DNA of 64,000 bases from Azolla caroliniana (lineage: Eukaryota > Plantae > Polypodiophyta), in contig JBHGNT010000014.1 in NCBI GenBank assembly GCA_043228905.1, positions 620,001 through 684,000 on the forward strand. The letters run 5' to 3'. Positions within the stretch are counted from its first letter, which is position 1. Each line of letters begins with the position of its first letter. The position numbers and the translations under genes are program-made. Positions 1 to 36,501 of this stretch are shown in pieces. The notes beneath the pieces were generated by a model. The model worked only from the letters and a program-made list of their open reading frames with translations, made no database searches and had not been told where the DNA came from.

Positions 1-483
1 ACATTGTTTCCCTCTCCATGGCAATCTCTTCCATTTTTCAGATTTTTCTCTATCTTCATTTTCACAGTCTTCATCAGTTTCTACATTTTGTTTTGGGTTG
101 TACCAACTACCCAACTCATCAAATATTACATCCCGACTTACCACAATCTTTTTTGTCAAAGGGTTATAGCATCTATACCCTTTTTGCTCCTCTGAATATT
201 CAACAAAAACACATTTTTCAGCTTTTGGATCAAGCTTACTTCTCACTTTAGCAGGTACATGGACATAGGCAAGGCATCCAAACACTTTTAAGTGTTCTAA
301 ACTAGGCTTCCTGCCATAGAAACATTCTTCAGGAGCTACTTCAAGGCATCCTACCATATAAACATTCTTCAGTAGTTACTTCATGCACTCCATATGTTAT
401 ACATCTATTTAGAATATAATTTGTTGTGTTTACGCTTCTACCCAATAATACAATGACATTTTTTTTTTGTCAGTAAAGCCCTT
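1..483 (-). pseudogene. Decayed Ty1/Copia integrase C-terminal fragment (Copia-C, continues left of the window)
   Basis: Manual minus-strand translation gives ..ALL..YYWVEA..NYILNRC..FYGRKPSLEHLKVFGCLAYVHVPAKVRNKLDPKAEKCVFVEYSEEQKGYRCYNPLTKKIVVSRDVIFDE, the standard Copia integrase/SH3 motif series, with stops, a frameshift and a short internal duplication. Confidence 0.9.
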
Positions 484-527
484 ATTTTGCCTCTTCCCCC
501 ATCGCTATTGCACGTCTATTCTTACCT

Positions 528-680
528 TAAACCCTAAACCCTAAACCATAAAACATACACCAATGGCCTCAACAAACCGAACCCAAACCATAAACACAAT
601 ACTAACCCTAACTTAAACCCTAACCCTAAACAACACCCTAAACAAAACCTATACTCTAACTCTAACCCCAAACCCATACC
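528..680 (+). repeat. Telomere-type repeats: TAAACCCTAAACCCTAAACC followed by degenerate CCCTAA/CCCTAAA variants
   Basis: Direct reading; CCCTAAA is the C-strand of the plant TTTAGGG telomere repeat. Confidence 0.75.
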
Positions 681-1914
681 CAATCCATACCCGGGTAGCT
701 CCCACAAACACTCCTTTCACATGAATCATAATACTAATCGATATAAACAATGGTCAGACCGTCATAGTCCTCATCACCATCATCAATCACAACCTCCACA
801 GTCAAATTACCATCAACAAAACCACACTCCTCATCATCATCATCTACAATCACAAGCTTCACCATCATACCAACACCAACACCAACATCATCACCAACAG
901 CCACTGAAACATTTTCATCCGCCATACTGTCATCAAACACAGGTACATCAACAGCGACCAGACCAACACCATCCACAAGTTCAACACCATCCGCAACCAC
1001 CGACCTTTCACCATCACCAACCATCAACCCTTCCTTAGCAATAGGCACTCATTCAACGCGCCTATTCCTATAATATAGCACCCAACGAACTCTCTTACCA
1101 ACAAAACCCAATTAACAGCAGACATAATATACATGACCTATTGTTAGACTCATCAACGTACCGATGACTCCACCGCCTCCCCGGGAACCAATCTTTTCTG
1201 ACCAACATCAATCCCATGTAATACCCCCGCCGAAAATGTGGACCACGGACATACCATGGACCACCACACATCCATTGTCAATGTCGCCACCACAACATCG
1301 CACATATGAGGTTCTCAGTGAAGGGTGCCAGAATAGTCACCCGCCCACTAGAAGCTCTCATCTTTTTGAACAGTCGTCGCTCGATCTGCATTGGATACTA
1401 ATGTCGCCATTACCATTTCCTTCGTCGCACCAATCCCATACCCATGTCGGGACTGCGTGGGGCAGCAGTCATGGGTATGGACCGCCTTCTAAAACATTCC
1501 CCTAACCCACCTATTACACCCACGTCGTCCCACATCCGCCCCTTCCCTTCCCAAGGAGCAGAACACATACCGCCTCAACCGCTTAATCCTCTCCAAGAAA
1601 GCATTATCCCCATGCTTAGAACCATCCCCATAGGAAGCATCCTCCCCATACATGTGTGTACTGAGATTCATGGACATCCTTACCCAAACCCACACAGTCA
1701 CTCTCTAATCCCTCACACACACAGTTACCCCTCGCTCCCTTCCTACTCTCACCCAAACTCACACTCACACATAAACCCCTCTTATCTCGACTCACACACA
1801 TACCCTTTTATTTATACACATACCCCTAATAATACCCTTCCTATCACCACTTCCCACTTACACCCACACAACTACATGTCACACACTTGTCCAAACCCCC
1901 CTTCTTCTTTTCTT

Positions 1915-1966
1915 CCCCCCCCCCCCCCCCCCACACACACTAAACCCTAAACCCTAAACCCTAAAC
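1915..1966 (+). repeat. Poly-C tract + (AC)n + perfect telomeric tract CTAAA(CCCTAAA)3C
   Basis: cccccc...ccacacacactaaaccctaaaccctaaaccctaaac read directly; telomeric part at 1940-1966. Confidence 0.9.
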
Positions 1967-1978
1967 GTGTAACGCGGC

Positions 1979-2590
1979 ATGCGAATCGTACAAATAGATG
2001 ATTCCGACACGCCGTACACCCTACTAAACGTCTAGTTTACCTACTTAATAGACACACAAACACCACCAATGCACGTGTATGGTTAGGAAATCTCTCTTGT
2101 CGAAGCCCTCCTACACATCCAAGCTCGTCAAGTAAGTGGCTATCCCAAAACTTTAGAATCTCGCATCTCTGACATGTTTTCGGAACTATGCAAACTTGAG
2201 ATAATCGATACTTGAGAAATCACAATAGAGCACTCGGCATTAGGTGCAAAATCTTACAGCACCAATGACCTATGGCGTAACACCTGCAGCAAGTGGCATA
2301 AAAACATGCTGAGAGAGATTAGGGGAGCGTTCAACGACTTCAAGCTCACACAATTTCTCAAGGCGCAAAATGATCACAATGCTCTCACTTAGCGAGATAG
2401 AGCTCGAGATCAAGCAATGGAAGATGCCGACAACCTCCTGCGGGAAGCAACCATTGCCGACCTCGTCAATAAATCAATCGACAATAAAATCTTGCCAATA
2501 CTCACTAGGTGTAAGCAACTCATAAAAAAGCAAGAAACTCCACCTCCCGCAAAGCAACCCATTCGAGCTGAAAGTGATAAGAGATCCTAG
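1979..2590 (+). pseudogene. Decayed 204-codon ORF of unknown (possibly retroelement ORF1-like) protein, copy 1
   Basis: One frame from ATG 1979 to TAG 2590 (MRIVQIDDSDTPYTLLNV*...EISLVEALLHIQARQ...RDRARDQAMEDADNLLREATIADLVNKSIDNKILPIL...) with only 4 internal stops (2033, 2084, 2213, 2390). Two of these are CAA in copy 2. Confidence 0.7.
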
Positions 2591-3384
2591 ACCAAACTTA
2601 CTTGACACATTCGAGTTTTATGTTTGCTCTTCTATCCCTCTCTTATCCTCTTAATCTTTCGCCTCTTCCCCCATCGTTGTTGCACGTCTATTCTTACCTT
2701 AAACCATAAAACATACACCAATGGTCTCAACAAACCGAACCCAAACCATAAACGCAATACTAACCCTAACATAAACCCTAACCCTAAACAACACCCTAAA
2801 CAAAACCTATACTCTAACTCTAACCCCAAACCCATACCCAATCCATACCCGGGTAGCTCCCACAAACACTCCTTTCACACGAATCATAATACTAATCGAT
2901 ATAAACAATGGTCGAACCTGTTGGGAATCAACGCTTGGATTCACCTTCACCACTCGGCCACAACCGAGTGATCGCGGATCAATGCAGCAGAAAAAATAGG
3001 AAATACAGAGAAAGACGCGATACACAGGAATTAACGTGGAAAACCCTATACGGGAAAAACCACGGGAGTGCGAGACTCCAAACCAAACTATGCACAGAGA
3101 AATATACAATGGCGAGCTGCAAGGCAACGACCTTGAGCTCGCTGTCCTCGCCACAGGCGGCGGAAATACACAGAGGCGTCTACCTCTTCGTCTCTCTCGC
3201 GCTCTATCTCTCTCTCTCTCTCGGCTGCTCCCTCTTCACTCCTCTTGAGTGGAAAGACAAAAAAAAATGATCAGCAACACAAAACTATTTGCCCTAAGTC
3301 ATATTTATACACATATGACTTTCGGGCTATTTACAAATATAGCCTCAAGGGCCCTTGGCAAACATATTCACAAATATGTCCCCG

Positions 3385-3555
3385 CATCCGGATCTCTCTC
3401 CGGGTACATTCGTCATCCGGCTCCGTAGTCGGGGTCTTCAGCATCCGGTTCCGTAACCGGGGTCTTCATCATCCGGATCCGTATCCGGGTACTCTTCATC
3501 CGGCTTCATGCCGGGTACTCTTCATCATCCGGTTCCGTAACCGCAACCGGGCTTG
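3385..3555. repeat. Imperfect ~25-30 bp tandem repeats (tcatccggttccgtaaccggggtcttca-like) in Copia-D LTR U3 (also ~8190-8360)
   Basis: Direct reading of repeated catccgg..ccgta..ccggg..tcttca modules. Confidence 0.7.
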
Positions 3556-3616
3556 CCGTCATTTATCCCCGGGGACATCTCATCCGGAGGGACCGAAATC
3601 CCAACAAACTCCCCCT

Positions 3617-6600
3617 TCACTTCGGCATGGGATGTCTCTCCAATCCAATCCTCTTCCGGCATGCTTCCAACTTGTCGGGTGTGAGCACTTTGGTCAGCAT
3701 ATCTGAGCCGTTCTCGTCCGTGTGGATCTTCGTCAGCACGAACTCCTTGTCTTCTATCCTTTCCCGGATCCAGTGGTATCTACGCTGGATGTGCTTCGTC
3801 CGGGAGTGATAGGCCGCATTCTTCGCAAGGTGGATGGCACTCTGACTGTCGCAGTAGAGTCGGTACTCCTCCTGCCGGATACCGAGCTCTCTAATGAAGT
3901 CCTTCATCCATATTATTTCCTTGCCGGCTTCAACAGCTGCCATGTACTCCGCCTCCGTGGTTGACAACGCAACCGTCTTCTACAGCCTCGACTGCCACGA
4001 AACGGCTCCCCCTGCATACGTCATCACATACCCTGATGTGGACCGGCTGGTATCTGCATCAGCCGACATATCCGAATCGGTGAAGCCGTCGAGTTCGGGC
4101 TTACCGGAGCCGAATCGGAGGCACACGTTTGTCGTGCCCTTCAGGTATCGGAATATCCACTTGGCCGCGTTCCAATGCTCTTTGCCGGGATTGCTCATGT
4201 ACCGGCTCACAACTCCGACTGCATATCCGATGTCCGGTCTCGTACACACCATGGCGTACATCAAGCTCCCGACGGCTGAGGCATACGGCACTTTCATCAT
4301 ATCCTCCTTTTCAGCCTTTGTCTTGGGGCTTTGCTTGCTGGACAGCTTGCAGTTTGCCGGGAGGGTCGATCCGACCGGTCTTGCCTCCGACATGTTGAAC
4401 CGGTGAAGCACCTTCGTCACGTACTTCTCCTGTGACAGCCACAACTGCTTCTTCTTCCGGTCCCGAATGATGTGCATCCCTAATATTTGCCTCGCCGGAC
4501 CCAGGTCCTTCATTGAGAAGGTTCGGTGAAGAGCCTTCTTCAGCATCCGTATCTTGACCTGGTCCCGTCCGACGATCAACATGTCGTCCACGTACAGGAG
4601 GAGTATTAGAGAGTCTCCTCCTTCGAACTTCTTCACAAACACGCAGTGGTCGGACTGCGTTTTGAGGTACCCTTCGTCGGTCATGAAGGAGTCGAACTTC
4701 CGGTACCATTGCCGGGGAGCCTGCTTCAGTCCGTAAAGGCTCTTCTTCAACCGGCATACCAGGTGCTCCTTCCCTTTCTTCTCGAATCCTTCCGGTTGCT
4801 GCATGTAGATCTCTTCTTCGAGGTCACCGTGAAGGAATGCCGTCTTCACGTCCATCTGTTCTACCTCGAGGTCCATGCTTGCCGCTATGCTCAGCACCGT
4901 CCGGATGGAGGTCATCTTCACTACCGGGGCAAATATCTCGTCGAAGTCGACACCCTTCTTCTGCTGAAACCCCTTCACCACGATCCTGGCTTTGTATCTC
5001 GGGGGGTTTTCGGCATCTCCCGGTTTCAGCTTGAACACCCACTTGTTTCGAAGTGCCCGCTTTCCTTTCGGCAACTCCACAAGTTCATATGTGTGGTTCT
5101 CATGCAGGGAATCCATCTCGTCCTGCATGGCACTCAACCACCTGCGGCTCTGGGTGTCATGCTTTGCTTCTTCAAAGCTCTCCGGCTCCCCCTCGTCGGT
5201 TAGCAGCACGTGCTCTGGTTCCGGAAATCTCCGGGGGGCCCTCCTCTCTCTTAGAGGATATCTCCGTTCGGAAGCTTCGGTAACCGGTTCTTCCGATTCT
5301 TCTTCTTCATCCGAATCCATTTCGGGATCGGGGCCGGTTCCGGTATCGTTCTCATCTTCTTCGGCCGGTTCTGTTTCTTCACCGTCTTCGGCCGGATCCT
5401 CGAGTGCTAACCGGTCCCTTGCCGGTCGGGACTGCTCCTCGTAGAGTTGATCCTCACCGGTCGACTTGGAGCTCTTCACCTTCTTCTCCGACTCCCAGTC
5501 GGCGAGTGTCTTGTCCTCCATGAAGATGATGTCTCGACTCCTGAATATCTTCTTGTCGACCGGGTCCCATACTCGGTAGCCGAACTCGTCGTCGCCGTAA
5601 CCGAGGAATATGCATGGCCGGGTCTTTGGATCTAGCTTTCCTCTCCGGTCCTTTGCCACATGCACGTAAGCGAGACACCCGAACACCTTCAGATGCCGGT
5701 AGGACACTTCCTTACCGGTCCACACTTTCTGCGGCGTGTCTCCATCCAAAGGTACTGAGGGTGATCTGTTTATCACATACGTCGCCGTCGACATTGCCTC
5801 AGCCCAAAATCCCTTGGGTAATTTCGCATGCGCCAGCATACTCCGGACCCTCTCCATTATGGTCCGGTTCATCCTCTCGGCCAGCCCGTTCAGTTCCGGC
5901 GTCTTCGGCACAGTAAACTCGAGTCGGATACCCTTCGAGCGACAGTACTCCTGGAACTGCCCCCGGTATTCCCCTCCGTTATCCGCTCGTATCGCTTTCA
6001 GCTTCTTGCCGGATTCCCTTTCCACTCTCGCGTGGAGTTCTTTGAAGACGCACAACACTTGGTCCTTTGTCTTCATCGGTGCCGTCCACAGTTTTCGGCT
6101 ATGATCATCGATGAATGTTACGAAGTACTGGGCTCCGCCATGTGACTTCGTCTCTACCTGACACACGTCAGTGTGCACCAACTCCAATGGTGCGCTACGT
6201 CTCGTCGGTGGCCTTGAGTGGAAGGAGGTTCGGTTCTGCTTACCGGCCAGGCAATCGGTGCACTTCTCCAGGTGCACATGCTTCACTGGGATAAGGTTGT
6301 CTTCTGCAAGCCTCTTCATCCCCTTCTCACTCATGTGGCACAGTCTCTTGTGCCACAGCTCACCGGCAATGTCGGCTGCCACATTCAGCTCTTCCGGACA
6401 TAACCGGGCATTCATCAGGTACAGTGTGTTGACTTTCCGGGCCCGAGCCACTATCAGGCTCCCCTTGCTGAACTTCATTACGCCGTTCCGGATGCTACCT
6501 GTGTAGCCTTCATCGTCTAGCCTCCCGGCCGAAATCAGGTTCAATCGAACCTCCGGAACGTGACGGACATCCTTCAGCAGCATTTTGCATCCGGTCGGGG

Positions 6601-7693
6601 TTGTCAACCACACGTCTCCGATGCCGGCAATCCGGCACGTACCTTCATTTCCCATCCGAACACAGCCATGCTCGCCGGCTGTGTAGGATGAAAAGTATCT
6701 TCTCTCCGGGGTCAGGTGGAACGACGCTCCGGAATCGACCACCCAGGTCATCTCATCGCCGGCAATGTTTAGTTCACCTTCTTCGGTGATGAGCATGATC
6801 TCCTCTTCACTTGCCGCGAGTGCCGTCGTTCCTTTTCGGTCCTGCCCTCGCCGATCCGGACCTCTCCGGTCCGTGGCTCCCCGGTATGCACCGTTTCTCT
6901 CCGGTGACTTCTTCGAATCGGTGTCGTCGGCTCCGTTGTCCTTTCGGTAATGCCGACAATTCTTCCGAAAGTGCCCCGGCTTCCCACAGTGGAAGCATGT
7001 GGGTCTTCCTCTTGACTGCGACCGGGTCCCCGACTTCTCCCGTCTTTGCGGACTCCGGTTCCATTGTCTTCCCCGATCCGATTCGGTAAACAACATCTTC
7101 GGGTCGGAGGCCGGTTCCTTATCTCTCCGACGCGCTTCTTCATTCAGAATACTTGTCTTTACCGTTTGTAAGGACAAGTTATCTTCGGTGCACGAGGTGC
7201 TGAGAGTCACCACCAAGTTCTCCCAGCTTTCCGGCAATGTACACATCAGGATGATGGCTTGCATTGCATCCTCCAACGGGAACTTGATCGCCGCAAGCTG
7301 ATTCACGAATCCCATGAACGTGCTTACGTGTTCCACCATACTCTCGCCGTCCCGGTACTTGAGATTCACTATCTTCCTCATCAGGGAGGTCCGGTTCAAC
7401 GCATTCTTCCTCTTGTAGAGGCCCGACAGCTTCTTCCACATCTCATATGCGTTGGTGTCGTTTGCCACATGTTGTAGGACGCTCACGTCGACGTATTGTC
7501 GGATCGTCGCTACGGCTTTCCGGTTCAGGAGCTTCCACTCCGACTCAAGTACCCCTTTCGGTATTTCCGACCTGTCAATCGGTTCGTACAGGTCCCGAAC
7601 AATCAGAAGGTCCTCCATCTTGATCTTCCAGTCGGCGTAATTCTGTGCATTCAGCACCATCATCATCGGCTGCCCGCTGCCGCCGCCTTCCAT
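3617..7693 (-). pseudogene. Copia gag-pol polyprotein with a single in-frame stop in RNase H
   Basis: Zn knuckle CFHCGKPGHFRKNC, protease WVVDSGAS, integrase (GAG-pre-INT, DDE core), RT LLLYVDDML, RNase H. TAG at 3980-3982 is followed by an in-frame continuation to 3617. Confidence 0.95.
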
Positions 7694-9539
7694 TTTCTGC
7701 AACAGTCGCTCTGATACCAGTTTGTTGGGAATCAACGCTTGGATTCACCTTCACCACTCAGCCACAACCGAGTGATCGCGGATCAATGCAGCAGAAAAAA
7801 TAGGAAATACAGAGAAAGACGCGATACACAGGAATTAACGTGGAAAACCCTATACGGGAAAAACCACGGGAGTGCGAGACTCCAAACCAAACTATGCACA
7901 GAGAAATATACAATGGCGAGCTGCAAGGCAACGACCTTGAGCTCGCTGTCCTCGCCACAGGCGGCGGAAATACACAGAGGCGTCTACCTCTTCGTCTCTC
8001 TCGCGCTCTATCTCTCTCTCTCTCTCGGCTGCTCCCTCTTCACTCCTCTTGAGTGGAAAGACAAAAAAAAATGATCAGCAACACAAAACTATTTGCCCTA
8101 AGTCATATTTATACACATATGACTTTCGGGCTATTTACAAATATAGCCTCAAGGGCCCTTGGCAAACATATTCACAAATATGTCCCCGCATCCGGATCTC
8201 TCTCCGGGTACATTCGTCATCCGGCTCCGTAGTCGGGGTCTTCAGCATCCGGTTCCGTAACCGGGGTCTTCATCATCCGGATCCGTATCCGGGTACTCTT
8301 CATCCGGCTTCATGCCGGGTACTCTTCATCATCCGGTTCCGTAACCGCAACCGGGCTTGCCGTCATTTATCCCCGGGGACATCTCATCCGGAGGGACCGA
8401 AATCCCAACAGAACCGCCATAGTCCTCATCACCATCATCAATCACAACCTCCACAGTCAAATTACCATCAACAAAACCACACTCCTCATCATCATCATCT
8501 ACAATCACAAGCTCCACCATCATACCAACACCAACACCAACATCACCACCAACAGCCATTGAAACATTTTCATTTGCCATACTGTCATCAAACATAGGTA
8601 CATCAACAGCGACCGGACCAACACCATCCACAGGTTCTACATCATCCACAGCCACCGACCTTTCACCATCGCCAACCATCAACCCTTCCTTAGCAACATG
8701 CACCCATTCAACGCGCCTATTCCTATAACATAGCAACCAACGAACTCTCTTACCGACAAAACCCAATTAACAGCTGACATAATATACAGATGACTCCACC
8801 GCCTCCCCGGAAACCAATCTTTTCTGACCAACGTCAATCCCATGTAATACCCCCGCCGAAAATGTGGACCACGGACATACCATGGACCACCACACATCCA
8901 TTGTCGATGTCGCCACCACAACATCGCACATATGAGGTTCTCAGTGAAGGGTGCCAAAATAGTCACCCGCCCACTAGAAGCTCTCATCTTTTTGAACAGT
9001 CGTCGCTCGATCTGCATTGGATACTAATGTCGCCGTTACCATTTCCTTCGTCGCACCAATCCCATACCCATGTCGGGACTGTGTGGGGCAGCAGTCACGG
9101 GTATGGACCGCCTTCTAAACATTCCCCTAACCCGCCTATTACACCCACGTCGTCCCACATCCGCCCCTTCCCTTCCCAAGGAGCAGAACACATACCGCCT
9201 CAACAGCTTAATCCTCTCCAAGAAAGCATTATCCCCATGCTTAGAACCATCCCCATAGGAAGCATCCTCCCCATACAGGAGCGTACTGAGATCCATGCAC
9301 ATCCCTACTCAAACCCACACAGTCACTCTCTAATCCCTCACACACACAGTTACCCCTTGCTCCAGTCCTACTCTCACCCAACCTCACACTCACACATAAA
9401 CCCCTCTTATCTCAACTCACACACATACCCTTTTATTTATACACATACCCCTAATAATACCCTTCCCCCCACCACTTCCCACTTACACCCACACAACTAC
9501 ATGTCACACACTTCTCCAAACCCCCCTTCTTCTTTTCTT

Positions 9540-9591
9540 CCCCCCCCCCCCCCCCCCACACACACTAAACCCTAAACCCTAAACCCTAAAC
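9540..9591 (+). repeat. Poly-C + (AC)n + telomeric tract CTAAA(CCCTAAA)3C, copy 2
   Basis: Same arrangement as 1915-1966; telomeric part at 9565-9591. Confidence 0.9.
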
Positions 9592-9603
9592 GTGTAACGC
9601 GGC

Positions 9604-10061
9604 ATGCGGATCGTACAAATAGATGATTCTGAGACGCAGTACACCCTACTAAACATCTAGTTAATAGACCCACACACGCCACCAATGCACATGTATGGTT
9701 AGGAAATCTCTCTTGTCGAAGCCCTCCTGAACGTCCAAGCTCGTCAACTAAGTGACTATCCCAAAACTTTAGAATCTCGCATCTCTGACAAGTTTTCGGA
9801 ACTATGCAAACTTGAGATAATCGATACTCAAGAAATCACAATAGAGCACTCCGCATTAGGTGCAAAATCTTATAGCACCAATGACCTATGGCATAGCACC
9901 TGCAGCAAGTGGCATAAAAACATGCGGAGAGAGTTTAGGTGAGCGGTCAACGACTTCAAGCTCGTACAATTTCTCCAGGCGCAAAATGATCACAACGCTC
10001 TCACTCAACGAGATAGAGCTCGAGATAAAGCGATGGAGGATGCCGACAACCTCTTGCGGGA
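9604..10061 (+). pseudogene. Decayed ORF copy 2 (3' truncated)
   Basis: Same frame as 1979-2590, with a frame-preserving 9-nt deletion, CAA at 9829 and 10006 where copy 1 has stops, and its own TGA at 9940 (GGA in copy 1). Confidence 0.65.
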
Positions 10062-11190
10062 TTTCTTTCTACCAGTACAAGCATTGAAACCAGATTTGGA
10101 AAACTTGGGATGCTATCCCTTGTGAGGATAGATGTTTTGAAGCTTTTATATTGAGGTCCTAAACCTCTTAAGCATATTTCCACCTTATCATCATCTTCTA
10201 CCTTCACATTGATAGAAGCAAGTGATTCACATATGCTCTTTATTTTCAGAGCAAATACTCATTCGTTGATATCTTACCTTTTTCCAAGGTATTTAGCTGA
10301 GTCTTCAACTGAATCTTTCTACCCTTTGTGTTCACTGTAAACAGTTTTACTAAACTGTCCCAAGCTTCTTTTGGAAGCATAGCATCATTTATGTGTCCAA
10401 GCATCGAATATTAGATGTTATGTGAGAGCCAATGCAATACCTTTCTTGCCCCTTGATTCCATTCCTTAAATGCTTTAATTTGTGCAGCAATTGCATTTTC
10501 TTCAGGGATCTCTGGAGCCTCTTCTAGGTCTCCTTCAATGTAATCCCAATATCCTTTTCCCATCAGGAAATTTGTCATTCTGAATTTTCACGCCGGGAAA
10601 TTGCTTTTATCCAGCTTTTCTGTGACTATTTGGCTTCCATTCTCAGCAACCATTCTCTCTTTCCATTAGTGCTTTTGTTATGATTAAGTTCACAAACAAC
10701 TCTGTCATTCATATCAACAACCAGAACCAAACTTCTCATATCTGTACTGTTCTAATCTTCTTTACGAGCAACTCTGCTCTGATACCATGTTACGAAGGCA
10801 TTACGACTCTTCTGTGTGCACAGCGGATCGTGATGTGTTGGATCGTTTAGTGCTCAAGACAGAAAGGGGAAGGGGAAGGACACTTACCTCTACACGGTCC
10901 AAAAGCTTCTATTCCATTACACACAGAGCTCAACTCGCTCTCATCAATTTTCTGTTCTTACAACTCTCTACTCTCGCAACTTCTACTTCTTACAACTTAC
11001 TACACTTACTTTTTACCTAAGTATATAAGTCACTTACATAAGCAGCTAATTAGTTGTCAGTAGCTAAATAGTTGTGCATTGCTAATTAGATGTTTCACCT
11101 TTATGTCCACTAGTAGCTAATTAGCTAATAGCTACTATAGCTTATTTTTCAATAAGCATCACATACCTTTGTTGAGCTTGCTTCTCAACA
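10062..11190 (-). mobile_element. 5' part of an old AT-rich Copia (Copia-C): 5' LTR 10788-11190, PBS, decayed gag
   Basis: LTR TG...CA; PBS gctctgatacca at 10776-10787. Gag from ATG 10653 reads MVAENGSQIVTEKLDKSNFPA*KFRMTNFLMGKGYWDYIEG...KVEICLRGLGPQYKSFKTSI, truncated at 10062. Confidence 0.88.
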
Positions 11191-11744
11191 CTATGGCCAA
11201 TGTTAGCGCTCAAGAATATCAATCCGTTTTCTCAGAGTTGCAATGCTTGAAAGAGAAGTTTCTCGCTTTGGAATGTTATTCTCTAGCCGGACAAGGCCTA
11301 ACACAAGGTGTCACGGAGACACTTCACCAAAGGGTGATTACGGCATAAGATTAAGATTCAACGATTACACCGACTTACATAGGTTACACGATTAGAATGC
11401 TTCGGTTAATTACACGCGTAAGATATAACAGTAATTACAGAACGGAAATCAAGACAGAAGTATAAACAACATAAGCTCTATTAATTATCCGCTCCGATTA
11501 CAATGGGGTCCGGGCCTTTAAATAGGTTTCCGGCCCGTAGTACAAAACGGTGCCTCTCGCACCTATTCGGGATCCGTCCGGATCTGGAACGGCATACCGT
11601 TTCCAGTCCGTCCGTCCACACTATGCTCATTTACAACCATATCTAATTAATTCCTTCACTCCGTATTTTGGACTCCTTGCCGGCCGGTAACACATGGCAC
11701 GCCCGTGGGACAGTACCTTGTACGTCGAACCCTTCTCGGCCCCT

Positions 11745-13715
11745 TCATTGTTCACCCAAATTGTCCAAATTACTTTGTTCAAGAATTTCCACTTGTTCTT
11801 CCGGTTGTGGTTGTTGCGGCTGTGCTTGCTGCTGCTGCTGTGGTTGCGGTTGGGACTGAGGCTGCTCCGGCTGCTCTGCTTGCTGCTGCTGCTCCGTTTG
11901 TTTCGCTGACTCCGGCTGCTCCGTTTTCAATTCTCTTTCGCGGCTCCTCGGCGCTTCTTGGGCAGCTAGCTCATCCTTTAAATCCTCAAGCTCTTGGGCT
12001 TGTGCCGCATTTCTCTCCGGGACGGTTTCCGTTGCCGGGGTCTGATTGCTATGTACAGGTTGATTTGACACTTTATTCTGTACATTGCCCGGAGTCACTG
12101 GTGCTTGGACTTGTGTTGTCAAAGCGAATTGAGCCATTTCCCTTGTGACCCTGTCCAAGTCTTGTTCAAGGCTCCGGATTCTGGACCGGGCCGTCTCTAG
12201 ATCTACGGTTGTGACGAGCAACCGTTCCTGGTGCGCTCTCTCTTCCGCCTCTATATACTCGACCGCTCCGGCGATTTGCTCGCCTACCCACCGTAGCCAT
12301 ATGCTACTGGTGCCTTGTTGCTGTACTGGTCGGGTCGGCTCATTCCCTGTGGAATTGTCTGGCCTGAGTGCCTGCATATGCCGTTCTGGTTCTACTCCTT
12401 GGCCGCCGTGTGCTCTGGCTGGGCTCGCCGGCTGTTGAGTTCCGGTTCTCGCCGTCTCCGGAACCGTTGGACTGACTTCTTCTATAGAAGTCAACAAGAC
12501 CGGTTCCCTACGCACCGGTTCCGGTTCTTCCCTTGTGGTTTGCTCAGGTTGAGTTGGGGGCGTTTCTGCCTCTCGCGGGTACGACCGCTCCCCTCCTGTC
12601 TCGGCGGCCCTACTTCTTGACCGTCGTTGGAGGTGCTCTTCTGGCTCCTCCGTTTCCTCTTCCTGTGTCACGGCATGTTTCTGTGCCGTCAAGGGTTCCG
12701 GTTCCTTCTGTCCCGGTCTCCGTAAGGTTATCTTGACGGGTCGGACCGGTGACACCTCCTCCGGTTCTGGGACCCGTTTCTTCCCTTTCGTCGCCTTCGA
12801 CGCCAGCAGCTGCTGTCGTTTGGACGCCGGCTTCGAGGTGCTTCCTTCCGATACTCTTGGCCGCTTCTTTGGCTGAACGGTCTCGACCGGCGGCACGAGC
12901 AATGTTATCCACTGAGCGACGGCATGCCACAGCTTCCGGCCCTCCTTGCCGTCCTTTCCTCGTACCATGTCGATTGCCACGCACAAACCGTCTGCAATCA
13001 ACACCGGCCAATCCACCTTGGTCCCTTCATAGCTGGCTATGATCATCCCTGCCCGATTTTTTGGCATGACAGGGGGTCGGGGGTACACGTGGCCGTACTC
13101 ATGGAGCACTCGAGCTATCTCCCTGAACAGCGGATCTTCGCCGCCCTGCGTTCGATAGCCTTTGCCGGCAACAGAGTACTCACCGAAATATCGGGTGAGT
13201 TGCGCCGAGGTTGGATTATCAATCTGAAAAATTCCTCCCTCCAGAAGGCCTGTTAGCGCACGGATCGCTTCCTCGGTGATGACTTCCTTGTCGAGCTCCT
13301 TGATGACCTGGTCGGCTTCTCTGTGCGGTGGTGCTTCCATGATGGCCAAGAAGCCCTCCAGTCCGTGTTGCCTGAACCATTTCCTGGCCGCTTCCGACAG
13401 CGTTTGTGGTTCCATGTCTGCTTCGAGGTCGAGGAAAGATGGCGAGGTAGAGTGGTGATGAGAGTGAGGACGAGAGAGAGAGCGTTCTGAACGTGGGGGT
13501 TCTCTGCGTGCAGGTTCGCGTTTGCTCAGCTTCCACTGTCTTGGTGCTTCTGTGCTTCTTGGCTCGCGAAATGAAAAGGTCTCCATGCGTTCTGCTTCTT
13601 CTTTGTGCGTTTTGGCGCCTTTTTCGAGCATGCACACGTCGTGTACCAATTTAGTATTAAGTAGCGTGGCGGCTCTTAAATGCCCACTACGTACCTTTTC
13701 GCGCCTTGCTTTCAC
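11745..13715 (-). CDS. Extra 656-aa ORF downstream of pol (env-position ORF, function unknown)
   Basis: Uninterrupted ORF between the pol stop and the 3' LTR. Globular-looking core (..MIIASYEGTKVDWPVLIADGL..), basic NLS-like segments, and a coiled-coil/Gln-rich C-terminus. Confidence 0.75.
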   Translation of the reverse strand: MKARREKVRSGHLRAATLLNTKLVHDVCMLEKGAKTHKEEAERMETFSFREPRSTEAPRQWKLSKREPARREPPRSERSLSRPHSHHHSTSPSFLDLEADMEPQTLSEAARKWFRQHGLEGFLAIMEAPPHREADQVIKELDKEVITEEAIRALTGLLEGGIFQIDNPTSAQLTRYFGEYSVAGKGYRTQGGEDPLFREIARVLHEYGHVYPRPPVMPKNRAGMIIASYEGTKVDWPVLIADGLCVAIDMVRGKDGKEGRKLWHAVAQWITLLVPPVETVQPKKRPRVSEGSTSKPASKRQQLLASKATKGKKRVPEPEEVSPVRPVKITLRRPGQKEPEPLTAQKHAVTQEEETEEPEEHLQRRSRSRAAETGGERSYPREAETPPTQPEQTTREEPEPVRREPVLLTSIEEVSPTVPETARTGTQQPASPARAHGGQGVEPERHMQALRPDNSTGNEPTRPVQQQGTSSIWLRWVGEQIAGAVEYIEAEERAHQERLLVTTVDLETARSRIRSLEQDLDRVTREMAQFALTTQVQAPVTPGNVQNKVSNQPVHSNQTPATETVPERNAAQAQELEDLKDELAAQEAPRSRERELKTEQPESAKQTEQQQQAEQPEQPQSQPQPQQQQQAQPQQPQPEEQVEILEQSNLDNLGEQ

Positions 13716-13784
13716 ACCCGTTCATACCTCGATTTTTAATGATTTTTTTTTTTTTTTTTTTTTTTTTAATGACGATGTGTGACC

Positions 13785-16700
13785 TTACACATCCGTAGGT
13801 CCCCTCGGACCCTTACCGTTTTCCTTACGGGTTGCCGTGTCTTCCTTCGCCTCTGCTACTGGTTCCCCGTCGTCTTTTTCTTCCGAACCGATACGTACCG
13901 ATCCCGGTGTAGTGCCGGTGAGCTGCATAAACGGGTTCTTTGGCATCGGTCCTTTATAGGGTTTTAGTCGAAATCCGTTTACCCACTTGCCTAGTACTTC
14001 ACCGGCAAGTGTCCCTATCTGATAGGACCCGTTGTATTCCCGTGTCAGCCAATACGGGCCTGTCCATCTGAACCGGAGTTTACCCGGCATCTTGCCCATC
14101 CTCGTTTGGAATACTAGCACCGGCTTTCCGATTTCGAACATCTTCTCATTACCTTTCCGGTGACGGTCAACGAACGCTTTCCGTCGTCGTTGCTCCAGTT
14201 CCATGTGTAGGATGTTGGCCAGCCGTTGCTCCTCCAGTTCGCATAGTGCTGCTAGCCGCATTTCCTCCGACTTCTTTTCATTCAGCCGTTCCCGTAGTTG
14301 GATCCGTAAGCTTGGTACCTGAAATTCCACCGGCATGACCGCTTCTAAGCCGAATGCTAACCGGAACGGCGTTGTCCGGATACTTGTTTTGTATGCCGTT
14401 CTGTACGCCCATAGCGCACTATGGAGCTTTGTGTCCCAGTCCGTCCGGTTTTCATTGACAATTTTGCGGAGAATGTTCTGCAGCGTTTTGTTGGTGGACT
14501 CTGCTAACCCGTTCGCCTGTGGGTAGTACGGTGTGCTTCGTTTATGGACCACGGCATAGAACGTTGTTAAGCTTTCCACTACCTGGCCAAGGAAGTGGCC
14601 TCCTTGGTCGCTGATTAATTCAATCGGACATCCATACCGGCACCAAATGTTTTCGTACAGGAATTTTGTTGTGGATGACGCGGTGTTGTCTCTCAGGGCC
14701 TTAGCTTCCACCCATTTCGTGCAATAATCCGTTGCCACGATGACATAACGATTACCTGTTCTCATTGCCGGTGGCTTGAACAGTCCGACAAAATCCAACC
14801 CCCACTTCTGGAATGGCTCTAGTGGAAGTACCGGTTGGTGTGGCATGCGTGCTTGCTCCGTAGGCTGGCCCATTCGTTGGCATAGGTCACATTCCTTAGC
14901 ATACTTGACGGCGTCTTTTAACGTCGTGGGCCACCATAAGCCGCTCTGCCATACTTTCCTCGCCGTCGCTTCCCCGGCATAGTGTCCTCCGGCAACCCCA
15001 CAGTGTGCTTCCCGTAAGATTACTTCTTTCTCGTCACTACGGACTGCCCGTCTCCATATTCCATCCGCTCCTTTGTGGTAGAGAGTGTCCCGTAACAGAC
15101 AGAAATTGCGGCTCTGCACCGCCAGTCGTTTCCTCTCGTCCCGGTTCATTTCCTCCGGTGGCAGGCCCGTGCTTAGGAACTGGTGCATGTTTGTCAACCA
15201 CCTATCTTCTGATGCCACCGTGTCGTCCGCTGCCGTTTCCGGGGTGATACGGAATAACTCCGCGTCCGGGAATTCATCCGCTACTCCGTCGCCTGGTTCT
15301 CCGGACTCTAACTGGCTCAGGTAGTCTGCTACGGCATGCTGGATACCGGGCCGGTGGAAAATCTCGAATTCGAACTCCTGCAACAACAAGGTCCAACGGG
15401 CCAACTTACCGGTCAAGGACGCCTTGGAAACTAAGTAGAGGAGCGCCGAGTGATCCACATGGAAGGAGAACTTCCTTCCCAATAGGTAGTGACGAAACTT
15501 TGTTACACTGTAGATCATGCCCAGGGCCTCCCGTTCCGTCGTTGAATAGTTCTTCTCCGCTTGGGACAGCTTCCGGCTGGCGTAATATACCGGTCGGTAC
15601 CATTTAGGCTCCGTAAGTTGCATTAAGGCGCTGCCAATAGCGATGTCGGAAGCGTCCACGAACACATGAAATTCCTTGCTCCAATCCGGAGGCTGCACGA
15701 CGGGTGCTTGCGATAAAAGTACCTTCAGGGCATTGTATGCCTTATCCTCCGTATCCGTCCATTGGAACGGTGTCCGATGTACCGCGGTGTGTAATGGTGT
15801 AGCCAAGTCAGCCAAGTGACGGAGCATCCGGCTGTGCCACCGGATCTGTCCTAAGAATCGGCTTAGTGCTTTGGCCGTTTTCAGCGCCGGTGCCCCTAGT
15901 ATGGCGTTTACTTTGTCCGGGTCGACCGCAATGCCCTCCTTACTTACAATGTGTCCCAGCAATATTCCACTTGAAACCCCAAAGATGCATTTTGCTGGGT
16001 TTAAGCTTAGCCGGTATAACCTACACTTTTCAAGGCATAACCGTAGGTGCTGCAAATGGTCTTTTCCCCGGCTATAGACTGCAAAATCATCCAGGAAAAC
16101 TTGCATGAAGGCAGGAATGTATTCGCCGAAGATCTCCATGATGATTCGCTGGAAAGTTGTTGGTGCCGTTTTTAGGCCGAACATCATGACTTCGGCCACA
16201 AACACCCCCCATTCGGTGACGAACGCTGTCTTCTCCTGGTCGTCCGGGTGCATCCGGATTTGATTGTATCCGCTGAAGCCGTCTAAAAAACTATAAACTT
16301 CATGGCCGGCGACGGCATCCAGTACTCCATCCGTGAACGGAAGAGGGAATGCATCCGTAATTGTGGCGGCATTTAGTTTCCTGTAATCTACACACACACG
16401 GATTTTACCGTTCTTCTTTGGGACGACGACGATGGGGCTCAGCCACGTCGCTTTCTTTACCGGCCGGATGAAGCCCACTCTTAGGAGTTTGTCGATTTCC
16501 TCCTTCACTTTGGCGGCGTAGTTGGGGTTCATTCGGTATCGTCTTTGCGCCACTGGTTTCGCGTCCTTGCCTAAGTGGATCTGATGCTGATATAATTGAG
16601 GGTCCAGCCCTCGCATGTCTTCGTATGACCAGGCGAATACGTCGCGAAACTCCGTGAGAAGTTTGATCATCGCCGCTTTATCTTCCGGCTTCATTTCTTT

Positions 16701-19636
16701 GGCGATGTGTACCGGCTTTGATTCGTCCTTGCTTCCTAGGTTCACTTCGTCGAGCTGGGATGCTTTTACCCGTTGGGAAACGGCCATTTCCCGTTCCAAC
16801 GCTTCCTGTGCTTGCCGTAATTCCCGAATCGCATCTTTGTCTGGTTCGGCTTCGGTGTCGTCCCGCTGCGGCAAGTATGCGGCTACGGCTTCAGCTACGT
16901 CAATCTCGAAGAGTGGTACGATCTTCGGGTGTTCCTCCAAGTACTGGGCTTCTTCGTCGTCTGCCAATCCTTCAAGCATGTTCACACATTCCGCATACAG
17001 CGGTGTGCATTCCTTACCGTTGCTCGTCCGTGGTTGTGTCGGTACCCGGACCTTGGCTTTTCCGCGCCGGAAGGTAATCATATTTTTTCGCCAATTTTGC
17101 TTGATGTGTGCTGTTTTTAACCATGGTCTGCCCAGCAATAGTGGGTACGCGCCTTGCGCCTGTAGCTGCAGCACGACAGCCGAGATGTGAAATGTGTGGC
17201 CTCCTATGGTGACTTCCAATTTCCGTATTAAGCCCGTCGGCCGTACAGAGCTCGTATCCGCCATCCGTAGCCAGAACGGGCATGGCTCCCATTCATGTAT
17301 TCCCAAGGCATCACACGTACGGAGGCTTATTACGTTCACCCCGGAACCTCCATCGATTACGGTGCCGGGAAGTTCGTGCCCTTTGACAATAGCTGTAATC
17401 GCCGGACTACTAGCGTCCACCACCGTTGGTCCCTCCTCCGGATTCGAGAAGAGGACTGGTGCCGGTGGGGCTATACCGTCTGTCATGACCGTTTTTAGTC
17501 CTTCTGTGAATCGCGGCACGAGCTGCAAGAGTCTTCCTAATGGTAACGTGATCTGACATTCTTGCAGTGCTTGCCATGTCTCGTTTTCTGGGTGGCTACC
17601 GCCGGCACTCCCTATGGTATTCGCCTTTTGCCGTTCCGCGTCCGCGACGTTCCTTTCATTGGCTTCCTTCACCCATTCCGTCGCCTGTTTTCGTATGGCC
17701 TCTTGTGTTTCCCATTCTTTGGCCATGCCTTTCGACCGTGTGGTTACTTGCTGTAAATCCGCCACTTCCGGAACCACCATATTAACTGCTGGTCGTTTCT
17801 CGTAGCTCTTTACCGGGCACTGGTTACTGTAGTGGCCTTCCTGCCTGCAGTAGTAGCAGTACTCTTTATGGGTATTGCTGGATTCAGCATTGCTGGTAGC
17901 CGGAGTTGGTCCCGTAGTGAGTGGTGCGTTCTGTGCCGGTTGGCTCCTTGGGGTTCCCTGTTCCGGGTCCCTAGTGTGACCACCTTTCTTGAAATTACGT
18001 TTCTTATTATTCTTATTTTTATTTCGGTAGTCCGGTCGTGGTAGATCGTAAAATCGGCCGTAGTCCTCCTGGTGCCTTCGGTAACCCGGGGAATGGTCTC
18101 TGTCGTATTGCTCGTGTCGTCTGTTGGGCTCCCGATAACGGTCCGATCGCTCATACCGGTCGTAGTTATCACGCCGATTCCCGTACCGGCCATCATTCTC
18201 TTGCATGTCCCCGTACCGGACATCCTGTGCCGGTGGGTACCGGTTCATTCTTTGCCAACGATCGTCATCTTCGTCTCGGCTGCTTCTTGGCTCGATCCGT
18301 CGGACGGGTGGTGCTTGTCGATTTAACAGGTTGTACTCGCACCGGTCCGTTGTATGACTCTTGGATTGACAAAGCACACACTGTGTGCGCATGGTGCACT
18401 CTACTGCCGAGTGTCCGGCATTCAAGCAGATTGTGCATTGAATTGCCTACCGGAACCAGAGATCTTCCTCGGTGGGTAACGCCCGTTGCAGTGTTCCCAG
18501 CGTAAGCCATGAGCTTGTCTTTTCCATTTCTCTGACCCGGTCAATGACCTGGTCGATGGTGCATCCTCGAAAGTCGATTACCGTACACACCGTGCGTAAC
18601 GGTTCCCGGAGTGCGTTTAAAAATATCGTCCGTAATTCCTCCTCCGGGGGTGCACGGGCAAGCTGGCTATGCATTCGTTGGAAACGGATGACGAATTGGG
18701 GAATGCTTTCCCCTGCCTCCTGCCGGATCGTATAAAACAGGCCCACCATTGTCGTCTGGTCGACCTCCTTGTGGAAAAAATGCAAGAATTTTGCTTTTAA
18801 TTCTGCAAAGGTTGTGATGGTCGCCGGGTCCTGCGTCCGCCGCCATCGTGTCGCCGGTCCCTCCAACGTGACTCCGAATTCCGCTATCTTCGAGCGTTCT
18901 TCTTCCTCCGGTGTCATTCGCTGGGACGTGTGATTTGCTTCCCATGTCTGCTCGAAGTCATGAACATGCGCTTCCGCGTCCGGGTCATCGCGATACTTTG
19001 AGTATTGGAACGGCATGTCGTCGTCCAGTATTAGGCCGCGGTTTAGTGGCGTTTGTTGATATCTTTCCGGTTCTTTCTCCGGTTCCACTTCCGGTTCTTT
19101 TGCCGGTGCTTTTCTGGTTCCTTTACCGGCTCTTCTTCCGGTACCTTTGCCGGCTCTTTCGTTGGTGTTGGTGGCTTTGCTTCTTCCACTTCCGGTGTTG
19201 GTGGGTTGACGGCTTCCGTTTGCGGTTCCGGATAGCCCTGGTTGAGCGGTTCCGGTTCTGGAGTTGGCACGGTATCCGACCCGTCGTCCTCCGGGCCGCC
19301 GGGGGTATCGTTGCTGCTCCGGTAGTTCGTGTGCACGCTGTAACCCCCTTCGGAATCCGATTCGTAGGCTGAAAAGGCTTCTGCCTCGTTTTCTCCGCTT
19401 GCCAGTGCCTCCAGGAGGCGTTCGGTTTCCCGGAGACTACTTAGACTGCTTCCGTCGTCCTGGTCGCGAGTTTGCCGTAACCGGAGAGATTCCTCCGCGA
19501 CTCTCCGGATCTCGTTGGAGAACGAACGATCTGAGCGAATTTCCTGCGCTGCTTGCTGGAAAGTCTCACGCCGTCTTTGCCGTTCGGCGAGGCGTCGAGC
19601 TCGGTCTGTAACCAAGTCGTGCGTTGGTCTAGTCAT
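13785..19636 (-). pseudogene. Gypsy gag-pol (three CCHC knuckles, PR IDGGS, RT FLDD, RH, INT) with one frameshift (~19110) and one in-frame TAG (18447)
   Basis: ORFs 19043-19636, 18447-19088 and 13785-18425 join via a 1-nt shortfall in an A-run and an in-frame stop (FR*AIQCTICLNAGH). Confidence 0.92.
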
Positions 19637-29800: not shown

Positions 29801-30833
29801 TTTATCTGGAACATTCTAGAAACTTTAGGAGTACTTCTAAGAACACTACAAAAGGAGGCACAAGGCATTATTTCGAACCAAATCGGTTCAATGCCAGTCT
29901 TAAGCCTCCTAGCTACTACTGTATATTCTCTTCACATAATATATATCTTTTGTTATCATCATGAGAGAGAGAGAGAGAGTTCTACACCTCTCTTAGTACT
30001 AATCCTCATCTTTTAGTACTAATTCCTTCTCTATCTTAGTATTGTTCCTAACAGTACTTCTCTGTCTTAGACTGCTCCTAACACTACTAACATGCTTGGA
30101 TGAAATGGAACCTACACTAGGTTGTACAGATCTAGGGTTGTCCAACCAAATGGCTCCTATTTTGGCTGGACTTATTCGTTTGACTCCTCTTCTAATTGGC
30201 TTAGGACTTCAAACTTATTGGACAATGGTGGATTATTCATAATATTAGAATCACTAAGTGCTTCTAAAATGTTGAACTCATTTTTATTGTCATAGTGAAT
30301 TTGATTTACCTGACGTTTCGACCTACTTGATCAATGAATGGCTATATGTCATAGACCTCCGCAATATAAGCATAGACAGTTTGCTCGACGTCGTTGCTTC
30401 TCTTCATCTCACAATGGTCCTCGTCGTTGGGTCATATCGATCTCCATGGGTGTAGGCCTATCTATTGGGGTTGGACTACGTGTTTGCCTTGGAGTTGGAG
30501 CATGGCTATATGTTTGCCTTGGAGATGATTGCGCCGTTACTGATGCTTAAGTTGGTGTGAATCTTGATCTTGTTATTTTTTGTTGTCGCTCACATCGATG
30601 CATAAAAAGATGATTATCACACCGTATTGCTCGACTAATAGCTTCTATAAGTGATTTTGGATCCTCGGGGAAGGTAAGAAGTAAGTTCTTCACATCACTA
30701 ATTGCTCCATTAGGGCTTGTTCATCCCAAGGAAAATTGCATGCGATGAGACGGAAATTGGGTGCATATGTCAATGTTGGCTGATCACCTTGACGTAGTGT
30801 ACGAATCTTCTTGATTATTGTTCTTGCCCCATC

Positions 30834-30937
30834 TGTCATGAACAGTACTGAGACAGAGAAGGAATTAGTACTAAACGAAGGATTAGTACTATGAGAGGTG
30901 TGGAACTTCTTCGAAAGAAGGAAGAAGTGAGCGAGAC

Positions 30938-30969
<32 letters not shown>

Positions 30970-36169: not shown

Positions 36170-36204
<35 letters not shown>

Positions 36205-36501
36205 TGATGATAAGAAAGATATGTATTATATGAAGAGAATATACAATGGTGGCTAAAAGGCTTAAGACTGGCGTTGAACCAATTTAGTTCAACATAATGC
36301 CTAGTGCCCTCTTTTATAGTGTTTTCAGGAGTAATCCTGAAGCTTCTAGAATGTTCCAGAGAAATCTGGAATATACACTAGTTTCTATAATAAAATGTAA
36401 ATGAAAATAATATCCTACGTATTACAATAGATGATCTAATGGTCAAGAGCTCGACCCATATAACCTAAGGTCATGGGTTCGAGTCTTGCCATATCATGAC
36501 A
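30834..36501 (-). mobile_element. Near-complete Tcn1-like chromoviral Gypsy (Tcn1-F)
   Basis: LTRs at 30834-31267 and 36071-36501 (about 6 substitutions plus small indels). PPT aaagtggggatag. Gag at 34845-35996 (one stop). Pol at 31260-34850 with PR LLDSGA, RT YLDD, RH, INT and a C-terminal chromodomain. Confidence 0.96.
36338..36357. promoter_or_regulatory. Heat-shock element (4 alternating nGAAn units) upstream of the LTR TATA box
   Basis: tGAAg cTTCt aGAAt gTTCc; minus-strand TATAAAA at 36312-36318. Same motif at 31103-31122. Confidence 0.6.

What the first reader, a model, noticed from the sequence alone, without database searches (positions are those of the whole stretch)
486..10061. 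Tandem ~2.17-kb units in which telomeric repeats cap a decayed ORF: candidate telomere-associated retroelement chain
Seen: two head-to-tail units with strong C/A strand skew. Each has poly-C-(AC)n-(CCCTAAA)3 immediately followed (12 nt) by a ~200-codon frame on the same strand. The frame behaves like real coding DNA: no frameshifts, stops only of the TAG/TGA type, complementary stops between the copies, and a frame-preserving 9-nt indel. More telomere-like motifs occur at 528-680. Established: endonuclease-deficient Penelope-like elements (Athena in bdelloids, Coprina in basidiomycetes, relatives in Selaginella) form tandem, 5'-truncated chains in which C-rich telomeric repeats lie on the sense strand at junctions. 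Inference: this is a non-autonomous remnant of such a terminally transposing element. The helical tail (ARDQAMEDADNLLREATIADLVNKSIDNKI) looks to me like PLE ORF1 tails, but no RT is visible here, so the family assignment is unproven.
Basis: partly seen in the sequence, partly recalled or inferred. Interest (0 to 1): 0.8.

Follow-up and report, generated by a model that had tools for sequence, protein, structure and literature searches.

The report
Telomere-stitched Penelope chain inside a retrotransposon
This is a decayed tandem of pieces from two plant Penelope-type jumping genes with no detectable DNA-cutting enzyme, joined by short telomere repeats and sitting inside another transposon 620 kb from the chromosome tip; it was likely pasted into a DNA break, and its intact relatives lie mostly inside chromosomes rather than at their tips.

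Summary
The two units and their telomeric repeats are real. Three corrections. (1) The ~200-codon ORF is a chimera: its first ~43 codons are an off-frame reading of the start of one family's RT ORF; the rest is ORF1 of a second PLE family. (2) The 580-680 motifs are Asn/Pro-coding ORF1, not telomere relics. (3) The chain is not terminal: it lies inside one copia insertion whose TSD and both LTRs survive, with ~1.3 kb deleted. The (CCCTAAA)2-3 tracts sit in register at 5'-truncation points and are absent from other copies, so telomerase likely added them. The genome holds young, intact two-ORF, hammerhead-bearing relatives with no GIY-YIG detected; 99 of 114 chromosomal RT hits lie over 1 Mb from assembly ends, and 14 of 16 satellite insertions face the telomere, opposite to Athena polarity. 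The scan noted this family elsewhere in the genome. Verdict: dead locus, new variant of a known kind.

The parts
263..483 (-). Host copia element, left part (its left LTR starts at C14:618,136, 1.87 kb before the window)
   Evidence: aligns to copia copies elsewhere ~1.3 kb from the right flank; TSD CTATG
484..531 (+). 3'-terminal fragment of PLE family Y (left end of the chain)
   Evidence: same as 2655-2700; homolog at C8 just upstream of a Y ORF1 ATG
532..545 (+). (CCCTAAA)2 at the junction of the Y 3' end with 5'-truncated W ORF1; in register with native AAACC
   Evidence: absent from 4 of 4 other W copies that span this point; unit B has a single imperfect repeat
543..1944 (+). 3' half of ORF1 of PLE family W (Asn/Pro/His/Gln-rich, decayed), ending in poly-C and (AC)n
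   Evidence: 83-88% to C51/C189 copies, where it follows an ORF1 N-terminal domain (45% to intact ORF1)
1945..1965 (+). (CCCTAAA)3 replacing ~175 bp present in other W copies; ends in register at the ORF1/ORF2 slippery site
1963..2107 (+). First ~47 codons of the W RT ORF (ORF2), with the stem-loop of a predicted -1 frameshift signal
   Evidence: (E 9e-9), (z -3.1 for 1960-2030)
2108..2572 (+). Middle of ORF1 of PLE family Y (predicted long helices), with decay stops at methylation-type sites
   Evidence: (71% to P0004)
2578..2700 (+). 3'-terminal ~125 nt of family Y
   Evidence: local score 122 against the C8 copy; 200 shuffles mean 27, max 43
2701..2918 (+). Unit B: W ORF1 piece, first part
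2919..8410 (-). Young Ty1/copia insertion that splits unit B (LTRs 2919-3606 and 7723-8410; TSD GAACC; open 1254-aa frame); a later passenger
8416..9569 (+). Unit B: W ORF1 piece, second part
9570..9590 (+). (CCCTAAA)3, same junction as in unit A
9588..9723 (+). Unit B: start of the W RT ORF (9-nt deletion)
9724..10059 (+). Unit B: Y ORF1 piece, cut at the right end of the chain (2-nt microhomology with copia)
10060..11190 (-). Host copia element, right part with LTR 10788-11190, followed by TSD CTATG

Best explanation
The locus is a decayed 1.8-fold tandem of a 2.17-kb chimera of two Penelope-like families with no detectable endonuclease, lying inside one copia insertion, and it was likely written into an internal DNA break by a Penelope reverse transcriptase acting in trans. 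Shown: the order of pieces (Y 3' end, W ORF1 3' half, telomeric repeats, W ORF2 start, Y ORF1); the intact host TSD and LTR pair; a ~1.3-kb target deletion with no TSD for the chain; telomeric tracts exactly at 5'-truncation points and in register with native AAAC/AAACC. Inferred: the RT primed on a free 3'-OH by microhomology, stalled and switched templates between W and Y RNAs. Telomerase likely added 2-3 repeats to the stalled cDNA 3' ends (G-rich strand), which then primed the next piece, as in Athena chains. The finished chimera was probably copied twice from one template at insertion, soon after the host copia arrived. It has since decayed neutrally and most likely does nothing now.
For: Piece identities. 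Same copia insertion on both sides. Deletion 1293-1351 bp in 3 of 5 reference copies tried; the other 2 lacked the marker word. Tracts absent from other W copies and in register. Timing: units differ 4.8% (91/1908), host LTRs 4.7% (16/340, partial alignment), inner copia 1/688. Neutral decay: 7 synonymous vs 16 non-synonymous codon changes in the Y piece; 27 of 39 polarised changes in the W piece are C>T or G>A. The family does this elsewhere: young copies sit in LTR elements or satellite with fixed 3' ends, variable 5' ends and junction microhomology. Telomeric words lie within 35 nt of the 5' junction in 6 of 54 segments, in both polarities. No GIY-YIG in or near them. Telomerase-linked insertion of short telomeric tracts at repaired breaks is a published idea (PMC6410037, passages).
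Against: The closest W copies are subtelomeric (C51, 57-63 kb from a telomere; C189, beside a telomere-associated satellite) and the chain has Athena polarity, so the chimera may have been built at a chromosome end first. The Y 3' end carries its own telomere-like repeats at C8, so the tract at 532-545 need not be telomerase-made. The window has no hammerhead and no promoter was shown, so an RNA template for the whole chimera is not demonstrated. The age match rests on 16 LTR differences. No second copy of the W-Y chimera was found (26 of 26 candidates scored; 40 of 86).
Confidence: 0.62

Rival explanations
1. The chimera was built at a real chromosome end by Athena-type terminal retrotransposition and was later copied into the copia break by DNA-templated repair or re-retrotransposition.
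For: C-rich repeats on the sense strand at both truncation points and 5' ends toward the nearer telomere. The nearest W copies are on subtelomeric contigs, and C189 is a ~40-kb A/W chain with a recurring (CCCTAAA)2-type junction. The Y 3' end ends in telomere-like repeats. Identical junctions in A and B show that the chimera existed before the tandem.
Against: No terminal donor chimera was found. 0 of 54 surveyed segments end on two or more C-rich repeats, though three C189 segments end on one. The young copies next to telomeres (C46, C60, C7) face the other way. Telomeric fillers also occur at interstitial junctions (C4, 8.7 Mb).
Confidence: 0.25
2. No telomerase and no RNA chimera: DNA-level microhomology recombination among old PLE copies built the unit, slippage expanded AAACCC words into telomere-like runs, and a local tandem duplication made the pair.
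For: PLE sequence here is rich in AAACCC-type words; poly-C and (AC)n next to the tract are slippage-prone; tract length differs between A and B at the Y/W junction. The tandem itself cannot be told from a DNA duplication.
Against: The tracts are perfect 7-mers at exact truncation points, and the native W sequence at those points has no CCCTAAA to expand. G-rich perfect tracts occur at other PLE junctions (C4, C7, C51). Pieces come from two families with no nearby donor.
Confidence: 0.11
3. The ORF is a host gene or DNA-transposon fragment with an incidental telo-box.
For: No Pfam match for the ORF itself; C51 shows long inverted arms.
Against: The arms are inverted PLE copies with RT between them. 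The ORF's relative hits PLE ORF1 and lies upstream of RT.
Confidence: 0.02

Closest known systems
Endonuclease-lacking PLEs of the Coprina group, including Selaginella Sm1/Sm2 (PMC8557442, PMC13159263, PMC4209133; passages)
   Same: PLE RT without GIY-YIG; upstream helical ORF1; type I hammerhead in the 3' repeat; partial tandems and inverted 5' pieces. The nearest named RTs are Cryptomeria (40%) and Selaginella (37%), in one land-plant clade.
   Different: Mostly interstitial, not chromosome-end. 3' ends join ordinary DNA or satellite by microhomology. Families C and D have no telomeric repeats in their last 450 nt. The hammerhead has a short palindromic helix III, whereas Selaginella PLE hammerheads are described as canonical. 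Identity with Sm1/Sm2 was not tested: no labelled reference was on hand.
Athena/Terminon chains of bdelloid rotifers (PMC6431247, PMC12477314; passages)
   Same: Head-to-tail chains of 5'-truncated units from different families, capped by short telomeric repeats that are C-rich on the sense strand; ORF1 separated from RT by a predicted frameshift signal.
   Different: The chain is 620 kb inside the chromosome, within a copia element. In relatives the hammerhead lies ~200-720 nt from the 3' end and is not followed at once by telomeric repeats. 14 of 16 satellite insertions have the reverse polarity. Units are ~6 kb, with no accessory ORFs.
PLE-X families of Chara and Selaginella (EN-less Chlamys; PMC8557442 section 9)
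   Same: PLEs without an identified endonuclease, with hammerheads, that reach internal sites; the paper calls the route an open question.
   Different: Those carry a CxC motif and belong to the IFD-bearing Chlamys group. The RTs here show no CxC and a short fingers region by inspection, and no rDNA targeting was seen.
Short interstitial telomeric sequences from break repair (PMC6410037, passages); endonuclease-independent L1 insertion (recalled)
   Same: Few perfect telomeric repeats at repair junctions; target deletion, no TSD, microhomology.
   Different: Here the repeats link retroelement cDNA pieces to each other, repeatedly, in a plant PLE.

Membership tests
Penelope-like elements | PLE-type RT (DK motif, RT core, thumb) | tested here: met
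   Window holds only the first ~47 codons. The contiguous C51 copy and intact relatives have it (RVT_1 E~1e-6, below cut-off, in 2 of 3 ORF2s; tree).
Penelope-like elements | 5' truncation, partial tandems (pLTR), inverted 5' pieces, no regular TSD | tested here: met
   TSD scan reached 7 nt or more in 4 of 54 rows, all in satellite, telomeric or chain repeats.
EN-minus PLEs (Athena/Coprina) | No GIY-YIG endonuclease | tested here: met
   Pfam scan of ORF1/ORF2. Genome-wide PF01541 gave 1 match among 9 candidates, at C8:2.59 Mb, not at a listed RT hit. No such motif in frames of 80 aa or more in units A and B. Hits with PF01541 are 32% identical or less. ORF1 model is helical, with no fold match at E<=0.001. 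A very divergent nuclease is not excluded.
EN-minus PLEs (Athena/Coprina) | Coiled-coil ORF1 upstream of RT, often with a frameshift signal | tested here: met
   (stem-loop z -4.3 in family B, -3.1 in the window, -1.7 in a C51 copy); frameshifting itself untested.
EN-minus PLEs (Athena/Coprina) | Hammerhead ribozyme in the 3' repeat | tested here: met
   Motif present in families A-D and W (Rfam scores below gathering). Absent from the window itself. Cleavage untested.
EN-minus PLEs (Athena/Coprina) | Reverse-complement telomeric repeats next to the hammerhead at the RNA 3' end | tested here: inconclusive
   Perfect CCCTAAA in the last ~450 nt: A 7, B 3, C 0, D 0. Y ends in such repeats at C8. 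Not adjacent to the hammerhead.
EN-minus PLEs (Athena/Coprina) | Confined to chromosome ends, 3' end attached to the G-rich overhang, 5' end toward the telomere | tested here: not met
   99 of 114 chromosomal hits over 1 Mb from assembly ends. Window chain inside a copia. 14 of 16 satellite insertions reversed; 0 of 54 segments end on 2 or more C-rich repeats.
EN-minus PLEs (Athena/Coprina) | 5'-truncated copies capped by telomeric repeats | tested here: met
   Window junctions. Only 6 of 54 other segments have telomeric words at the 5' junction, some G-rich on the sense strand.
Coprina clade proper | RT groups with labelled Coprina references (Cc1, Pc1, Sm1, Sm2) | not testable with these tools
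   No labelled references on hand. A quick tree groups the families with an unlabelled Selaginella protein and gymnosperm proteins (SH-aLRT 99).
PLE-X / Chlamys | CxC motif and insertion-in-fingers domain | tested here: not met
   By inspection of the five ORF2 sequences; no profile test.

The most novel reading that the evidence does not exclude
An active land-plant PLE lineage without an endonuclease has left the telomere-overhang route. It spreads genome-wide by priming on internal 3'-OH ends (breaks, or the nascent C-rich lagging strand in subtelomeric satellite, which would explain the reversed 14:2 polarity), and it uses telomerase as a linker enzyme that stitches cDNA pieces of different families into chains anywhere in the chromosome.
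Probability: 0.35. Interest if true: 0.75.

Novelty: new variant of a known kind. Interest (0 to 1): 0.52.

Why it matters
Endonuclease-lacking PLEs are the closest mobile relatives of telomerase and are described as generally restricted to chromosome ends; how some spread internally without a nuclease is stated as open (PMC8557442). A 2025 review names only Selaginella for plant telomeric PLEs (PMC12477314). This genome offers several young, intact families with 96-100% identical copies, fixed 3' ends and readable junctions, so the priming route can be tested directly. The window locus is dead, but it records template switching between two families with telomerase-type fillers at an internal site.

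Tried and rejected
Long-TIR DNA transposon idea from the C51 inverted arms: rejected, RT lies between them. Intron explanation for the shared stops: rejected, they come from reading ORF2 off-frame. ESM Atlas: best score 0.81, chance level. PDB sequence and Foldseek searches: nothing significant. Expression: no RNA holder listed; laying contigs of 4 runs on window 300-3000 gave only short pieces; neither bears on expression. Hammerhead pattern in the window: 0 matches. The careful tree did not finish; the quick tree is reported, and family Y was left out. The polarity bias is 8:0 in family A but 6:2 in the others, which alone is not significant. The A 3' end resembles the satellite (score reached by 14 of 500 shuffles on the G strand, 43 of 500 on the C strand), so sequence likeness may drive part of it. 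Literature searches that found no description of such elements in ferns or of this route: 0 papers; 0; 0. Gladyshev and Arkhipova 2007, Lin 2016 and Arkhipova 2017 were not held; they or their supplements may already report interstitial EN-minus copies in Selaginella or conifers.
Full report
Observation. The window is G000:C14:620,001-684,000; C14 begins with a CCCTAAA telomere, so the locus is 620 kb from that end. Unit A spans 484-2658. Unit B is 2659-2918 plus 8416-10059, split by a copia element with TSD GAACC and LTRs differing at 1 of 688 nt. A and B differ at 91 of 1908 aligned bases. Runs of two or more perfect CCCTAAA occur only at 532, 1945 and 9570 in the window, and in 0 of 2000 shuffles of the unit.

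The unit is PLE-derived. A DNA search of the genome (40 of 86 candidates scored) found 83-88% relatives of 543-1930 on C51 and C189; I call them family W. At C51 this sequence runs on into a reverse transcriptase with PLE motifs and ends after the thumb without an endonuclease. That RT piece retrieves 150 scored hits of 453 candidates, many in open frames of 656-698 codons. Intact units of 5.6-6.1 kb hold an ~850-880-aa ORF1 overlapping ORF2. The overlap has an A-AAA-AAC slippery word followed by a stable stem-loop, a predicted -1 frameshift. The 3' region holds a TATA-like word, a type I hammerhead motif with palindromic helix III and, in families A and B, degenerate C-rich telomere-like repeats. 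No GIY-YIG was found in these ORFs or units; a genome-wide search gave one unrelated match among 9 candidates. The nearest named RTs are from Cryptomeria (40%), Selaginella (37%), a Gb-labelled gymnosperm set and Closterium. A quick tree of 59 rows nests the families with the Selaginella and gymnosperm proteins (SH-aLRT 99), with GIY-YIG-bearing rows outside. I did not test this with host genes.

Window 1963-2103 matches the first 47 residues of an intact ORF2 in another frame (53%, E 9e-9). P0004 hits ORF1 of intact PLEs at E~1e-13, and its family (Y) has RT downstream of ORF1 at C13; a more distant Y-like copy at C1 shows the same order. A 13-sequence AlphaFold model shows long helices over residues 137-364 and disordered flanks (mean pLDDT 58.8), with no fold match. 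Window 2578-2700 is the Y 3' end: it aligns to the stretch just before a Y ORF1 ATG at C8, which there ends in telomere-like repeats (score 122; shuffles max 43). The Y piece decays neutrally (7 synonymous, 16 non-synonymous), and its stops fit methyl-cytosine deamination (inference).

The telomeric tracts mark truncation points. The (CCCTAAA)3 replaces ~175 bp found in 4 of 4 other W copies and ends on the AAAC of the slippery site. The (CCCTAAA)2 starts where W is cut and shares AAACC with native W. On the cDNA strand both are G-rich additions in register with a 3' end in GTTT, the pattern expected of telomerase (inference from general telomerase biology, recalled).

The chain is interstitial. 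Sequence left of 484 and right of 10059 belongs to one copia family, collinear, with 1293-1351 bp missing (3 of 5 reference copies gave a value). The host's two LTRs are flanked by the same 5-bp TSD, so both sides come from one insertion and the distal chromosome piece was kept. Host LTR divergence (16/340) matches A/B divergence, consistent with two copies made from one template soon after the host inserted. No other copy of the W-Y junction was found.

The family behaves the same way elsewhere. Of the 150 RT hits, 114 are on C1-C22; 13 lie within 500 kb of an assembly end (5.3 expected, p 0.002) and 99 lie over 1 Mb inside. The other 36 are on small contigs that hold 8.7% of the bases. So there is subtelomeric enrichment but no confinement. 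I fetched 47 regions around RT hits, hand-picked for intact frames or small contigs, so the following are not unbiased rates. With C189 they gave 54 aligned segments: fixed 3' ends per family, variable 5' ends, no regular TSD, and microhomology at 3' junctions. None ends on two or more C-rich telomeric repeats; three C189 segments end on one. Telomeric words lie at 6 of 54 5' junctions, G-rich on the sense strand at C4 and C7 and C-rich at C96 and C189. After merging copies with identical junctions, 14 of 16 insertions in the 178-bp subtelomeric satellite read toward the telomere (p 0.004), the reverse of Athena. Against over-reading: the split is 8:0 for family A, whose 3' end resembles the satellite, and 6:2 for the rest. 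C189 is a ~40-kb A/W chain with a recurring telomere-repeat junction and Athena-like polarity, which favours the rival that such chimeras can form at ends.

Mechanism. Best reading (0.62): PLE RT in trans patched an internal break, switching between W and Y templates, with telomerase-type fillers on stalled cDNA ends. Rival (0.25): built at a chromosome end, then relocated. Rival (0.11): DNA-level recombination and slippage. Host gene or DNA transposon: 0.02. The PLE identity itself is near certain.

Known kinds. EN-minus PLEs are described as generally restricted to termini, attaching to G-rich overhangs through C-rich repeats next to a hammerhead (PMC8557442: passages, and section 9; PMC6431247: passages; PMC13159263: passages; PMC12477314: passages). 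Selaginella PLEs carry canonical hammerheads (PMC4209133: passages). EN-less PLE-X families already reach internal sites by an unknown route, so internal spread without a nuclease has precedent. Telomeric insertions at repaired breaks are also known (PMC6410037: passages). The three primary papers most likely to mention interstitial plant copies were not held, so novelty is provisional. Two unreviewed notes of this scan describe the same superfamily elsewhere in this genome; one agrees on break patching, the other leans to tip attachment, which my counts do not support for most copies.

Verdict. It works like an Athena chain but fails the telomere-confinement test: a new variant of a known kind, interest 0.52.

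Noticed in passing
window 2919-8410: Very young copia element (LTRs differ at 1 of 688 nt, open 1254-aa frame) nested in the PLE chain, which is itself nested in an older copia.
   Followed up: partly
G000:C189:900-39,400 (L036-L039): ~40-kb same-strand chain of A and W fragments plus an unidentified ~0.8-kb piece; the same telomere-repeat junction recurs five times.
   Followed up: partly
G000:C51:53,591-73,800: W copies joined to a piece that looks like ORF1 of a third PLE family through G-rich telomeric repeats on the sense strand; long inverted arrangement around an RT.
   Followed up: partly
G000:C32, C57, C52, C8:217-220 kb, C35, C136: The family A 3' end resembles a near-palindromic word of the 178-bp subtelomeric satellite, present on both strands; 4 of 4 independent insertions at that word use the G-rich strand. 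Possible switch of targeting from telomere repeats to satellite.
   Followed up: partly
G000:C60:148,934 and C7:3,716: PLE 3' end or truncated ORF1 joined directly to (TTTAGGG)n on the sense strand; at C7 this is the chromosome end itself.
   Followed up: partly
L104:1880-1980 and equivalents in families A, C, D: TATA-like word about 20-35 nt upstream of the hammerhead in all four families, suggesting that the promoter lies in the terminal repeat.
   Followed up: no
G000:C22:8,945,515-8,968,470; C29; C400: Near-identical (99%) tandem arrays of four or more full 5.58-kb units at internal or satellite sites; a rolling-circle or multimeric template is possible.
   Followed up: no
G000:C13:1-1500: Subtelomeric satellite in the opposite orientation to the other 8 of 9 contig starts that carry it; possible mis-join or inversion.
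   Followed up: no
window 20,100-36,650: Two related retroelements in inverted orientation (arms 81-88% complementary over several kb).
   Followed up: no
window 11,274-19,987: Retroelement with an identical 300-nt repeat at both ends and long open frames (658 and 1553 aa) on the minus strand; likely a young LTR element.
   Followed up: no
window 37,703-38,095 and 48,134-48,663: 196-bp two-copy tandem; (TAAA)n array with a 27-bp minisatellite.
   Followed up: no
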